Source: Octopus vulgaris (Eukaryota). Taken from it: a stretch of DNA of 64,000 nucleotides. The notes beneath the pieces are model-generated. The model saw only the letters and a list, made by a program, of their open reading frames with translations, was not told the DNA's origin and searched no databases. Position numbers and translations under genes: made by a program. This document shows, piece by piece, positions 7,303-31,325 of the stretch. The stretch lies in contig OX597818.1 in assembly GCA_951406725.2 (NCBI GenBank), forward strand, positions 142,290,001 to 142,354,000, written 5' to 3'. The stretch's first letter is position 1, and each line of letters begins with the position of its first letter.

Positions 7303-8219
7303 TATCTTTTGTTTCAGTCCTTCTCTTCCAGAATATCAATGCCCTGGAATGCTTTCCTTATGCTCTCCTTACCAATTTTCTTTCCCCAATAGTTGTCAGC
7401 TATGAAGGCATACGCACAGTCCCTCCTCCCAGACAAAACTGCAATCAAACAGGAAGAAACAGAGACAATAAAATTCCCTTCAGTGAAACAACAGCATTAT
7501 TTGCCTCTCTTTGTGGAGCAGAATGGCTGGATGGTCCTAAATAAACTTCATAAGTTTTACTTTTTCACTAATTATCCCACTACACTATAGTAAGATTGCT
7601 AGTTTAATGGGTAATTACTTTGTCAACTCCACAAATTGATTGAAAGGTCAAGTCAACTTGGACAACATTTTTCAAGTTGGGTTTAAAGCTCGTCAATTAT
7701 CCAATCTAATCTGGCTGTGTACCAACAAAGCTATTGGCAAACTTTCTGAAATATGCGGACTACAGAGAACGTGATGTGTTGTTGTTTAACCCCAGGTCAG
7801 ACCTTAACAGAACTCAACAAAATCACAATCAAAGCCATTCAAGTGATGATCATTTTGACTTTTCAGATAGATTTATCTCAGACTATACTACCAACAAAAG
7901 CAGAAAGGATACATTGGACACAGGGAGATTTAGCTGTTATTTCTAAAGGGCTAAGTAATTGTGTTGAGGCACCATCATTGGTTTGTAAATAATCCTATCG
8001 TATTAGGTTGTTGAACATCATCATCATCATCATCATCATCGTTTAACGTCCGTTCTCCATGCTAGCATGGGTTGGACGGTTCGACTGGGGATCTGGGAAG
8101 CCAGACGGCTGCACCAGGCTCCAGTCTGATCTGGCAGTGTTTCTACAGCTGGATGCCCTTCCTAATGCCAACCACTCTGTGAGTGTAGTGGGTGCTACAT
8201 ATAAATATGTATATATATA

Positions 8220-8630
8220 TATCATCATATCTTCGTTTAACGTTCGTTTTCCATGCTAGCATGGGTTAGACAGTTCGACCGAGGATCTGGGAAGCCAGAA
8301 GGCTGCACCAGGCTCCAGTCTGATCTGGCAGTGTTTCTACAGCTGGATGCCCTTCCTAATGCCAACCACTCCGTGAGTGTAGTGGGTGCTTTTTACGTGC
8401 CACCTGCACAGGTGCCAGGCGAGGCTGGCAACGGCCACGGTCGGATTGGTGTATTTTACGTGCCACCGGCACGGAAGGCAGTCGAGGTAGCGCTGGCAAC
8501 GGCCACGGTCGGATTGGTGTATTTTACGTGCCACCGGCACGGAAGCCAGTCGAGGCAGCGCTGGCATCGGCCACGAGTGGGATAGTGCTTTTTACGTACC
8601 ACCAGACCAGGGATCCTGGCTGGTTCAATT
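8220..8630 (-). mobile_element. RTE-related short retroposon (family B) with internal ~65-bp tandem units and (GAT)n tail
   Basis: Minus strand: GGTTGGCATTAGGAAGGGCATCCAGCTGTAGAAAC...CCCATGCTAGCATGGAAAACGAACGTTAAAC. Other copies near 8017, 8955, 9968, 27645, 30955, 39325 and 43445. Confidence 0.75.
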
Positions 8631-10803: not shown

Positions 10804-11609
10804 TATATATATACATATAGATAGATACATATATACATATAGATACATATATATATATACATATATATGTATATATATATATATGTATACATATGTATAT
10901 ATATACACACATATATATTTACATAAGCATATTATCGTTGTCATTGTTTAACATCCATTTCCCTGCTGGCATGGGCTAGATGGTTTGACAGGGGCTGGGC
11001 AGCTGGAGAGCTATACCGACTCCAATTGTTTGTTCCGGCATGGTTTCTATCGCTGGATGCCCTTCTTAATGCCGACCACTTTACAAAGTGTCCTGGGTGC
11101 TTTTTATGTGCCACCAGCCAAGATGCAGTTTACACAGCACTGGCACAAGGGCATTTTACATGGTACCAGCACCTGCAAGACAAAGGCCTCTCAGCTGGGA
11201 AAGGAAGTGGGGGTATGGCTATAAAAAATATGCCTGTGTGTATGGATGGACATGATGTCACTTAGCTTGATGTGTTTACTCAGGTAGAGCAAATCGGCAG
11301 AAGTCCCAGTCCTTTGTCATCTCTTTGTGTTTTCATGTTTGGATTAACTATATATATATATATATATACATTGTCCCAGTTTGTATTTTTCTACACATAA
11401 TACATATATATACATATATATATACATCTATATTGAGTGAGAAAACGGCATGGACAATTTTTTGGAGTCTAATAATACCATGTACGCCTATTTGATTATG
11501 AAGATTTACAAACATACTTTCCCAGTGATACTCGGTTTACCTACCATTATAAACAATACCAAATGTTTTTTCTCAAACCTTTCATAAAGTCTTTGGTGAA
11601 GCAATTGCA

Positions 11610-11704
11610 TGCGGCTGAAGAGGGCTTTTGAACTATCTGTTATGTTGATTATGCATTGATGTAAGAATAAGTTGTTCTATAAAGCTCGAAACATATGTAC
11701 CGCA
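11610..11704 (+). ncRNA. Type I minimal hammerhead ribozyme (Penelope-like element type)
   Basis: Stem I TGCGG/CCGCA; core CTGAAGA (11615-21); stem II GGGCTTT...AAAGCTC; GAAA (11688-91); palindromic C-ATAT-G stem III; GTA cleavage triplet. Sits in a ~310-bp insert flanked by (TA)n. Confidence 0.75.
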
Positions 11705-11878
11705 ACATCCTTTGTGTCCAGTTTTTCATTTTATTTTATTTGATACACATATATATATATACACACACACATTTATATATGTATATATATATATACATAT
11801 ATATATATACATATATATACATACATAAACATACATATATATATACATACATAAACATACATATATATATACATATAC

Positions 11879-29358: not shown

Positions 29359-29380
29359 GAAATGTAATAAAAAAACTCAC

Positions 29381-30336
29381 CTCGTCCTCCTGTGGAACTA
29401 TTGTGTCTTCCAAACGTTGGTCATATTTAGTGTCATAGTCATCCTCCGAAGATTCTGAATCCGACCAACTTCGGTCAAATAGTTCTTCAGGAGACAAAGA
29501 AATAATTTCTTGGTCATTAATACTAGAATCTTTGTTAAATAAATCAGATTTGGTATCCAAAAGACTAACAATACCATTGCGCTGTGTATATCGCTTTGGT
29601 AATGAATTTGTGTTTTTATGATTTTTGTTAATGACTATTTCATCATTTGCTAAAACTTTTTGCAAACTTGGAGAACAGGATTGTGACTGCGGCAGTGGAT
29701 GGGAACCGGATTCTCCCTCAGCACTCCACTTATTTTTATTAATTTTTTCCACAAAGGCACGTACATATCCAGCTGCCATTGTAGGGTTTGCCAGATACTC
29801 ATCTTTGACTGGTGGTGGCTTTTTGACATTTTCTACTGGAGTGAAGGAGTTTGTTAATTTCTCAATGGTTTGAGAAATGTGTTTTGTACGATTTTGTGGT
29901 GAGGAAGGCATGGATTTGGACATTTGGCTTTCAGCAATGGTTTTATCTTTCAGTGTTTTCACTGGTGATGTCGATTCTTTGTTCAGTTTCTGAAATTCAC
30001 TGCATCTCTGCCGCACAATGCCAGAGAGCTTTGGAGACGTTGGTGTGGAAAGCGAAGAATTCCATCCAGAGAGTGGAGGAGAATTATTTGATTGTGGAGC
30101 TTCATAAAAAGGAATTTCTTCGTAGATTGGTGAATCAGGACAACTTTCTGTAGTGTTGTCTAAAAGACACAGACAGTTTGAAGAACTTTCTGCTTGCTCA
30201 TGCTTTATTGCTTCTGTTGAGGTGTCCTCTGCAGTGTTTCCAGAAATCACAACACCATTGAGTTTGTTGTGAGACTTTGTAAGTTTTGAGCCAACCCCTG
30301 TAATGAGGCGCTCCAAGAACTTCGGCTTGGCTGGTG
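29381..30336 (-). CDS. Large internal coding exon (956 nt) of a minus-strand multi-exon gene; disordered Ser/Pro-rich region of a probable signalling/cytoskeletal protein
   Basis: Only long, non-repetitive ORF in the window (track 29276..30316). Acceptor ttttatattttcAG|CACCAGCC at 30338-30337; donor GAGGACGAG|GTGAGT at 29380. Reads (x)CA-PAKPKFLERL...TIVPQEDE, entering in phase 1 and exiting in phase 0. Beyond the donor the ORF runs into (ACT)n/(CAT)n microsatellite. No folded domain recognised. Confidence 0.9.
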
Positions 30337-30954
30337 CTGAAAATATAAAAAAAAGAATTTTAATTAATTTCAGAAAACAATTTAATCACTATACAAATAC
30401 TTGCTTTTTATTAGACAAATACTTTTACTTCCTTCTGATGTGATATTTTGGAAATCAGATGTGTTCTTGCTGTTTCTGTGACAAAACATACCAATATTTC
30501 ATTTTCATTCCGAGAGATACAGCACAAGTGTTCTCATTGTGAGTCTTATTCAAAACTTTATGTGCTTCCTTCTAAACATTATTTTCGGTCTCTCAAATGT
30601 TTTCTTGTCTAATAACAATCCCAAATTCCACAAACTCACCCTTTTGATCTTTGAATGATTTGAGAAATAGTACAAAAATTTGACATTTCAATATCCACTA
30701 GTCTAGTTTCGTTCATCTGTAGCCCCAATGAAGCAAACCTTTTAATGCCTTAGTTGATCATATTCATCACAGAACTAATTTCATTAGTCTGTATTTGTGA
30801 AACTGCTAAATCATAGGACATAAAAGGAACACAATATGAGTTCTTCAGGGAATCTGTAAGAAAGAACATAGCTGCTACTTGCTTGCAAGTACAACTAGGT
30901 GAAATGCACCAATGCTTTTGATAATTGTTTTAGGTATTTATAGGTATAGTTGTG

Positions 30955-31325
30955 ATACCTGCGCCGGTGGCACATAAAAAGCACCATCCGAACGTGGCTG
31001 ATGCCAGCGCCGCCTTGATTAGCTTCTGTGCTGGTGGCATGTAAAAAGCACCATCCGAACATGGCCAATGCCAGCGCCGTCTTTACTGGCTGCTGTGCCG
31101 GTGGCACGTAAAAAGCTCCAACCGATTGTTGCCGTTGCTAGCTTCCTCTGGCACATAAAAAGCACCCACTACACTCACAGAGTGGTTGGCGTTAGGAAGG
31201 GCATCCAGCTGTAGAAACACTGCCAGGTCAGACTGGAGCCTGGTGCAGCCTCCTGGCTTCCCAGACCCCGGTCGAACCGTCCAACCCATGCTAGCATGGA
31301 AAACGGACGTTAAACAATGATGATG
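30955..31325 (+). mobile_element. RTE-related short retroposon (family B)
   Basis: Four GGTGGCACRTAAAAAGCACC-type units, then the shared body and (GAT)n tail. Confidence 0.75.

What the first reader, a model, noticed from the sequence alone, without database searches (positions are those of the whole stretch)
11430..11740. Intact Penelope-type minimal hammerhead ribozyme with an unusually long stem II insert
Seen: all catalytic core nucleotides (CUGAAGA...GAAA, GUA cleavage after 11699), a 5-bp stem I, and a 1-bp stem III capped by palindromic CAUAUG. Stem II (GGGCUUU/AAAGCUC, extended by GAAC/GUUC) closes ~50 nt. Established: such minimal type I hammerheads mark Penelope-like element termini and retrozymes and are thought to cleave as dimers through the palindrome. 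It is antisense to the host gene, so it would not cut that pre-mRNA.
Basis: partly seen in the sequence, partly recalled or inferred. Interest (0 to 1): 0.7.

Follow-up and report, generated by a model that had tools for sequence, protein, structure and literature searches.

The report
Long-armed hammerhead in octopus Penelope fragment
This is an intact hammerhead (self-cutting RNA) motif at the broken-off end of one of about 2,500 copies of a Penelope-type jumping gene in an octopus genome; its second arm is two to three times longer than in described relatives, but this lone copy faces against its host gene and is likely inactive.

Summary
Observation confirmed base by base. The motif is the hammerhead of a ~320-bp, 5'-truncated 3' end (pseudo-LTR) of a Penelope-like retrotransposon, likely Hydra clade, inserted in an (AT)n microsatellite. 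It lies antisense in a ~44-kb intron of an FGD-type RhoGEF gene, with no second copy found in the window or the 100 kb to its left. The lineage has 2,486 intact-core matches (0 in the control). Sister subfamilies keep 836-aa ORFs with a telomerase-like RT fold, and some carry two hammerheads 4.5-4.8 kb apart. The '50-nt insert' is not an insertion in this copy: it is a family-wide, interrupted helix (domain II 51-66 nt against at most ~26 nt in published Hydra motifs), and the most abundant subfamily lacks its inner 10-bp hairpin. Across 16 subfamilies the core never changes (0 of 90 substitutions), and stem II and the palindrome change through wobble intermediates; a formal covariation test was not significant. 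A dimer is the predicted active fold for the minimal RNA only. No cleavage or expression evidence was obtained. The kind of element is known; the long arm, shared by other hammerhead families here, is the only unusual part.

The parts
11428..11746 (+). 5'-truncated 3' end (pseudo-LTR) of a Penelope-like element, likely Hydra clade; ends at the family's shorter 3' end, without the ~70-nt tail; carries a 9-bp deletion at 11586 relative to its closest siblings
   Evidence: parent element
11610..11704 (+). type I hammerhead motif, complete core, predicted cut after 11699
11610..11614 (+). stem I, 5' arm (pairs with 11700-11704; 4 bp conserved in the family)
11615..11621 (+). catalytic core CUGAAGA
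   Evidence: invariant in the 48 rows of alignment A1
11622..11687 (+). domain II, 66 nt: 7-bp proximal stem (11622-28/11681-87), 4-bp middle stem (11630-33/11674-77), 10-bp inner hairpin (11640-49/11655-64)
11688..11699 (+). GAAA, palindrome ACAUAUGU (11691-98) forming a 1-bp helix III in the monomer or an 8-bp duplex in a dimer, and cleavage base A11699
11700..11704 (+). stem I, 3' arm
11404..11433 (.). AT-rich microsatellite at the 5' junction (likely target site)
11749..11877 (.). (AT)n-type microsatellite at the 3' junction (likely target site)
29375..30373 (-). coding exon (aa 108-440) of the FGD-type host gene; the intron that follows it, ~44 kb, holds the element in antisense

Best explanation
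This is the 3' end of a Penelope-like retrotransposon (likely Hydra clade), copied into an (AT)n repeat inside a host intron, and its intact hammerhead is likely a passenger here that would cut only when paired with a second copy in the parent element's tandem RNA. Shown: the motif, the family, the copy structure, the parent ORF, the host-gene orientation. Inferred for the parent: a read-through transcript of a pLTR-ORF-pLTR tandem holds two hammerheads 4.5-4.8 kb apart; their palindromes pair into an 8-bp helix III, probably helped by the element's protein, and a cut at the upstream motif would free an RNA starting about 190 nt before the ATG. Reverse transcription would start at one of two sites about 47 and 120 nt past the downstream motif, on RNA still uncut there, since genomic copies run through the cut site; early termination gave this stub. 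The long domain II is an interrupted, slowly remodelled helix whose base is under selection and whose far end is likely tolerated rather than required. Inferred for this copy: no partner, no ORF, wrong strand for the host transcript, so no activity.
For: Family: 40 of 1,311 candidates scored, 88-93% identical over the full query apart from itself; 2,486 core matches, 0 control. Shared 3' ends with variable 5' ends: of 129 deduplicated copies 71 end short before a microsatellite, 53 carry the tail, 5 other; head-to-head inverted pairs are common. Link to the ORF: L125 has RT piece, endonuclease and a pLTR 86.8% identical to the window in one orientation, and its coding parts are 74-80% identical to intact elements. 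3 of 8 selected regions hold an intact 836-aa ORF and 4 of 8 hold two direct hammerheads. The model's best PDB match is telomerase TERT, E 7e-9. Hydra motifs DKT, CxCX5C, CxxC/CxH, no CCHH, (TA)n targets (one search read). Selection on the ribozyme in the lineage: 0 of 90 substitutions between 16 subfamily majorities fall in the 14 core columns, against 6 of 122 private changes (Fisher p 0.04). Three two-step compensations through wobble: stem II pair 2 G-C/G.U/A-U, stem II pair 5 U-A/U.G/C-G, palindrome centre U-A/U.G/C-G. Loop variants that can self-pair were amplified (ACGU 359, AUGU 152), the mismatched ACAU is rare (38, of which 31 sit in the ACGU subfamily's background). Two copies of the 108-nt RNA fold into the dimeric hammerhead (-48.0 kcal/mol; duplex probability 0.98) while monomer helix III has probability 0.08. 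No family copy elsewhere in the window or in 100 kb to its left. Literature: low, dimer-dependent cleavage (PMC4209133); protein-assisted cleavage, uncut RNA as main template, tail from two RT starts (PMC11167929).
Against: No cleavage assay and no usable expression data. The formal covariation test on 48 of 129 copies did not beat shuffles (score 0.143 vs 0.139, 108 of 500; 5 of 28 pairs with double changes, 256 of 500), though it beat slid controls (0.034-0.058). RNAalifold on that alignment returned only a 3-bp hairpin over the core, not the hammerhead (22 of 48 rows had a clipped 5' arm). Pair-breaking versus pair-keeping changes did not differ between subfamily and private changes (1:7 vs 6:14, p 0.63). 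The core test is biased because many copies were found with patterns that need an intact core. With longer natural flanks the dimer duplex drops to probability ~0.1, and two natural copies of the youngest subfamily fold with the palindrome paired but the core trapped in another hairpin. The palindrome path is one series of two changes, one of them a CpG-type transition. No intact ORF was found for the window's own subfamily; its pLTR matches intact elements only at 76% over 91 nt. Clade placement rests on motifs, not a tree. Pfam found nothing in five ORF pieces.
Confidence: 0.82

Rival explanations
1. The long domain II is a functional module of the element: it docks on stem I or binds the RT-endonuclease protein and so licenses cleavage or template choice.
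For: All 16 subfamilies keep a domain II of 51-66 nt; for 16 representative copies it folds better than shuffles on average (z -0.8 to -3.4; window copy -1.5); the inner hairpin is 94% paired with repeated A-U/G.U exchanges; other hammerhead families in the fetched loci also have 44-67-nt domains; a Penelope hammerhead is protein-assisted in vitro (PMC11167929).
Against: The subfamily that dominates the first 100 listed matches and keeps intact ORFs has lost one arm of the inner hairpin; the middle stem shifts register and is only 70% paired; in the anole element the protein-binding region maps inside the ORF; families with 14-31-nt domains occur in the same loci.
Confidence: 0.25
2. This copy has been recruited by the host, for example to process an antisense RNA at the FGD locus.
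For: Core and stems are intact; it lies inside a gene.
Against: 8 of 311 bases differ from the siblings' majority, within the siblings' range of 1.9-7.1%, so an intact core is expected about half the time by chance; 123 of 138 aligned copies are also intact (biased sample); monomer helix III is unstable and no partner is near.
Confidence: 0.03
3. It is a monomer of a non-autonomous retrozyme that spreads through small circular RNAs.
For: Size near 300 bp, type I motif with a 1-bp helix III and palindromic tetraloop, as in axolotl retrozymes (PMC7229834); retrozymes are proposed to derive from pLTRs (bioRxiv 10.64898/2026.07.22.740005).
Against: Copies have variable 5' ends that run on into a long 3' UTR and the ORF; among the first 30 loci second copies were inverted, none a short head-to-tail repeat; the shortest direct pairs seen were 1.4-1.6 kb apart.
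Confidence: 0.04
4. The hammerhead-like sequence is conserved for a reason other than cleavage, such as dimerising the template RNA for reverse transcription.
For: Genomic copies come from RNA uncut at this site; catalytic mutants did not affect insertion in vitro and no reads ended at the cut site in the anole element (PMC11167929); the palindromic duplex forms even where the active fold does not.
Against: The catalytic core is invariant across subfamilies, which dimerisation alone would not need.
Confidence: 0.12

Closest known systems
Hydra clade of C-terminal EN+ Penelope-like elements and their hammerheads, including Hydra-1_Obim (Craig et al. 2021, PMC8557442; section 11 and Files S1, S2 seen)
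   Same: RT then GIY-YIG; DKT; CxCX5C linker; CxxC and CxH; no CCHH; (TA)n targets; sense hammerhead near the 3' end with a palindromic helix III; partial tandems, inverted truncated copies, optional tail.
   Different: Unit length 4.5-4.8 kb against generally under 3 kb; domain II 51-66 nt against at most ~26 nt in the 26 Hydra rows of File S2; tail ~70 nt against 30-40 bp; RWA in place of RWK; a different hammerhead sequence from Hydra-1_Obim.
Minimal and small-helix-III hammerheads of metazoan Penelope-like elements (Cervera and De la Pena 2014, PMC4209133; parts 1-2 of 4 read)
   Same: Type I, helix I 4-5 bp, helix II 7-8 bp, palindromic 15.2-16.2 and loop 3, mostly solitary copies from truncated elements, opposite-strand pairs.
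   Different: Keeps a C-G pair plus 4-nt palindromic loop, so it is the small-helix-III variant, not the strict minimal form; helix II carries 50 more bases; the base after the core is paired in this subfamily.
Long-loop hammerheads of PLE-X1_sMoe and PLE-X1_sTam (PMC8557442 File S2)
   Same: Penelope-like hammerheads with 34- and 29-nt loops on stem II, so long domains have precedent.
   Different: Spike-moss, endonuclease-lacking, rDNA-targeted elements flagged as deviating from the canonical structure; here core and palindrome are canonical.
PAc, Poseidon element of Anolis carolinensis (Frangieh et al. 2024, PMC11167929; passages and part of the main text read)
   Same: Hammerhead in the pLTR, AT-rich targets, two 3' ends.
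   Different: There the ORF starts in stem II; here the ATG lies about 270 nt after the start of the motif, so the long arm is non-coding.
Animal non-LTR retrozymes (PMC7229834; bioRxiv 10.64898/2026.07.22.740005; passages)
   Same: Type I motif with weak palindromic helix III.
   Different: Those are short tandem, non-coding units; this is the end of a coding element.

Membership tests
Type I hammerhead ribozyme | Conserved core CUGANGA, GAAA, UH | tested here: met
   invariant across subfamily majorities
Type I hammerhead ribozyme | Helices I and II closing the core, helix I open | tested here: met
   stem II pairs 0.84-1.0, stem I ~0.6 in the 108-nt monomer; stem I falls to 0.03 in one longer context
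Type I hammerhead ribozyme | Helix III | tested here: inconclusive
   monomer 0.08; dimer duplex 0.98 for the minimal RNA, ~0.1 with longer flanks
Type I hammerhead ribozyme | Match to an Rfam hammerhead model | tested here: not met
   no hammerhead hit at gathering score or at E up to 10; a detection limit of the models, likely due to the long arm, not a defining trait
Type I hammerhead ribozyme | Self-cleavage at the predicted site | not testable with these tools
   needs in vitro assay
Type I hammerhead ribozyme | Tertiary contact between helix I and helix II | not tested
   no three-dimensional RNA test run
Penelope-like element (EN+) | Telomerase-related RT | tested here: met
   best fold match TERT, E 7e-9; profile hit to a retron RT, E 0.0016; from a sister subfamily's ORF
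Penelope-like element (EN+) | C-terminal GIY-YIG endonuclease | tested here: met
   VIY...YIG motif with downstream R, E, N in the ORF, read by eye; Pfam gave no hit and the listed fold matches were polymerases
Penelope-like element (EN+) | Pseudo-LTRs in partial tandems, inverted truncated copies, optional tail, hammerhead in the pLTR | tested here: met
Hydra clade | DKG modified to DKT | tested here: met
   PADKTG in the ORF
Hydra clade | RWK motif | tested here: inconclusive
   RWA here; RWR and RWK in three homologues viewed
Hydra clade | CxCX5C linker | tested here: met
Hydra clade | CCHH absent; CxxC and CxH beside the conserved E and N | tested here: met
   one Cys between the VIY and YIG motifs; CQLC and CIH present
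Hydra clade | Insertion into (TA)n | tested here: met
Hydra clade | Generally short (under 3 kb); descriptive, not defining in the source | tested here: not met
   4.5-4.8 kb between direct hammerheads
Hydra clade | Placement in an RT phylogeny | not tested
Non-LTR retrozyme | Short non-coding unit in head-to-tail tandem repeats | tested here: not met
   dispersed, 5'-variable ends of an ORF-coding element
Non-LTR retrozyme | Abundant small circular RNA | not testable with these tools
   only assembled contigs were available

The most novel reading that the evidence does not exclude
Octopus Penelope-like elements use a distinct long-armed class of dimer-dependent hammerheads, invisible to Rfam models, in which the 50-70-nt domain II is a protein-docking or gating arm that times cleavage against reverse transcription; the ladder of subfamilies, some still with intact ORFs, is a natural mutational series for testing what Penelope hammerheads are for.
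Probability: 0.2. Interest if true: 0.62.

Novelty: new variant of a known kind. Interest (0 to 1): 0.3.

Why it matters
The copy itself is likely an inert stub. The family matters modestly. First, thousands of intact hammerheads in this genome are missed by Rfam, so counts in cephalopods may be low. Second, the role of Penelope hammerheads is still open in the papers read (PMC8557442, PMC11167929); here an invariant core, a palindrome that changes only in ways that keep self-pairing, and natural elements with two hammerheads around an intact ORF give ready test material for the dimer model. Third, it shows how much sequence a hammerhead's stem II can carry in a successful mobile element.

Tried and rejected
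Rfam: no hammerhead hit. Whole-motif folding z-score: uninformative, +0.53. RNAalifold on A1: only a 3-bp hairpin. Shuffle test of covariation: not significant. Pfam on five ORF pieces: nothing above cut-off; single-sequence PDB search: nothing. Sequencing runs: no RNA holder listed on record; four runs laid were contigs only, with mixed family variants and no informative joint or end, so no evidence on expression, cleavage or circles either way. Idea that the long arm is the ORF's first codons, as in the anole element: rejected, the ATG lies ~270 nt downstream of the motif start in partial tandems. Idea that the insert is private to this copy: rejected. Target-site duplication: not discernible inside microsatellites. 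Polarity of the subfamily ladder: not resolved; within-cluster divergence is 1.6-3.3 changes per ~125 nt throughout. The two stem I changes counted come from a tie in a two-member cluster and are likely an artefact. Earlier notes by sequence and by place: nothing. Literature searches listed no paper describing long-armed hammerheads in octopus Penelope elements; the library lacks most subscription papers, and the supplementary figures of PMC4209133 were not seen and may show such motifs.

Full report
Observation. A core-only pattern matches once in the window against 0.06 by chance (5 of 100 shuffles). The 106-nt motif is no more stable than shuffles (z +0.53) and Rfam finds no hammerhead at the gathering score or at E up to 10. 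The 52 bases closed by stem II hold a predicted 10-bp hairpin, so domain II is a 66-nt interrupted helix, not a stem with a big loop.

A repeat, not a unique locus. The window lies in a 2.8-Gb animal genome. The 311-bp query had 1,311 candidates, of which 40 were scored, 88-93% identical over the full length apart from the window copy. A pattern for the lineage's intact core gives 2,486 matches and none for the reversed control; tighter patterns gave 396 and 587. Copies share 3' ends and differ at their 5' ends. Of 129 deduplicated copies, 71 stop at a short end before a microsatellite, as the window copy does, 53 carry a ~70-nt tail and 5 fit neither. Second copies in the first 30 loci were inverted. 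The window copy differs from the majority of its 30 closest siblings at 8 of 311 bases plus a 9-bp deletion (siblings 1.9-7.1%).

The parent element. Walking upstream through longer copies led through a 1.6-2.5-kb untranslated region to an endonuclease C-terminus. L125 carries an RT piece, the endonuclease and a pLTR 86.8% identical to the window, all in one orientation. A search with the ORF's 5' part found partial tandems in which 3' UTR, hammerhead, tail and a short 5' UTR precede the ATG, about 270 nt after the motif's start, so the long arm is non-coding. Of 8 regions chosen for long open frames, 3 hold an intact 836-aa ORF and 4 hold two direct hammerheads 4.45-4.76 kb apart. These belong to a sister subfamily; L125's coding parts are 74-80% identical to them, the window's pLTR only 76% over 91 nt, and the link is a continuous ladder of subfamilies. 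The ORF's model (pLDDT 79.5) matches telomerase TERT best (E 7e-9). Pfam gave no hit on five pieces. Against the diagnosis of the Hydra clade in PMC8557442 section 11, the ORF has DKT, CxCX5C, CxxC and CxH, lacks CCHH, and the copies sit in (TA)n; it has RWA for RWK and is longer than the usual 3 kb. No tree was built, so Hydra is likely, not proven.

Host gene. The exon at 30373-29375 (- strand) is identical to a protein that a source names FYVE, RhoGEF and PH domain-containing protein 2 of Octopus sinensis. Its next exon lies at G000:C5:142275493-395, so the motif is antisense in a ~44-kb intron, and no other family copy lies in the window or the 100 kb to its left. A hammerhead of another family sits in the same intron in sense orientation, so orientation here shows no special rule.

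Was the ribozyme selected? In the lineage, yes, on moderate evidence. Of 146 copies, 138 could be parsed; 16 clusters form a ladder. None of 90 substitutions between neighbouring majorities touches the 14 core columns, against 6 of 122 private changes (p 0.04; with stem I, 2 of 90 against 16 of 122, p 0.005, the 2 likely being a tie artefact). Many copies were found with patterns that require the core, which biases both counts. Three positions change on both sides through a wobble state: stem II pair 2, stem II pair 5 and the centre of the palindrome. Genome-wide, loops ACGU (359) and AUGU (152), which can self-pair, were amplified, whereas ACAU (38) is rare and 31 of these sit in the ACGU background, as CpG decay would give. 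A four-base loop cannot pair with itself within one strand, so this favours pairing between two copies, but it is a single series of two changes. Against: the shuffle test on 48 of 129 copies was not significant (108 of 500), RNAalifold did not recover the fold, and pair-breaking changes were not significantly rarer between subfamilies (p 0.63).

Mechanism. For the 108-nt RNA, monomer helix III has probability 0.08, and two copies fold into the dimeric hammerhead at -48.0 kcal/mol with probability 0.98. With longer flanks that falls to about 0.1, and two natural copies of the youngest subfamily pair their palindromes but trap the core in another hairpin. This fits published behaviour: no monomer cleavage and weak dimer cleavage (PMC4209133), protein-assisted cleavage and uncut RNA as the main template (PMC11167929), and activity in only one of nine retrozyme dimers (bioRxiv 10.64898/2026.07.22.740005). 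The sequence itself shows that copies were templated by RNA uncut at the downstream motif, because they run 47 or about 120 nt past the cut site. I infer that cleavage acts at the upstream motif of a tandem transcript to free the element's RNA. For the window copy nothing suggests activity. Reads did not help: only contigs were available.

The long arm. The 26 Hydra rows of File S2 in PMC8557442 have loops of 3-10 nt and domains of at most about 26 nt, while two spike-moss elements in the same file have 29- and 34-nt loops. Here domain II is 51-66 nt in all subfamilies and folds somewhat better than shuffles in 16 representatives (z -0.8 to -3.4). The inner hairpin is 94% paired, the middle stem 70% and register-shifted, and the subfamily with intact ORFs has lost one arm of the inner hairpin. 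Other hammerhead families in the fetched loci also have 44-67-nt domains, some have 14-31. I read the base of the arm as required and its far end as tolerated (about 3 to 1 over a docking role). Six literature searches listed no description of such arms in octopus; supplementary figures of PMC4209133 were not seen. Earlier AI notes of this scan, read after my reading was on record, say much the same for other pieces; they are leads, not support.

Verdict. A real, intact hammerhead motif at the end of a likely Hydra-clade Penelope-like element: a known arrangement, with a longer stem II than published Hydra motifs. New variant of a known kind; interest 0.3.

Noticed in passing
L190:1510-1598, - strand (G000:C5:~142281510-142281598): An intact hammerhead of another family (59-nt domain II, palindrome ACAAUUGU) lies in the same FGD intron but in sense orientation to the pre-mRNA; also solitary and next to (AT)n.
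   Followed up: partly
L021, L025, L040, L064, L065, L071, L073, L074, L100, L223, L227, L232 and others: In 1.1 Mb of fetched loci several unrelated hammerhead families occur, with domain II of 14-67 nt, many 44-67 nt, nearly all with palindromic helix III.
   Followed up: partly
L230:4158-6668 (-), L232:696-3206 (+), L237:4213-6723 (-): Intact 836-aa RT-endonuclease ORFs in the sister subfamily; it dominates the listed matches and many copies are identical in the motif, suggesting recent activity.
   Followed up: partly
alignment A1 columns 10-12 with 19-21 (window 11614-16 with 11623-25): A 3-bp alternative hairpin that would trap the CUGAAGA core is possible in all 48 rows and appears in the fold of the youngest subfamily; a candidate off-state.
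   Followed up: no
L062, L068, L071, L074, L086 (3' UTR): The element's 1.6-2.5-kb 3' UTR contains an internal (TATG/TGTA)-like microsatellite tract shared between copies, so the element may seed simple repeats.
   Followed up: no
window 11741-11746 and +70 nt in siblings: Two fixed 3' ends about 70 nt apart, longer than the 30-40-bp tail described for other Penelope-like elements.
   Followed up: partly
L063, L065, L068, L072, L074: Fragments of other Penelope-like and LINE ORFs often sit next to copies of this family, consistent with shared microsatellite targets.
   Followed up: no
G000:C9:28275532 and 28291707 (L007, L008): Two copies 16 kb apart with 99% identical flanks: a local duplication, not independent insertions.
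   Followed up: no
window 8026-8603, 30959-31125: Tandem 194-bp and 67-68-bp repeats belonging to abundant SINE-like elements.
   Followed up: no
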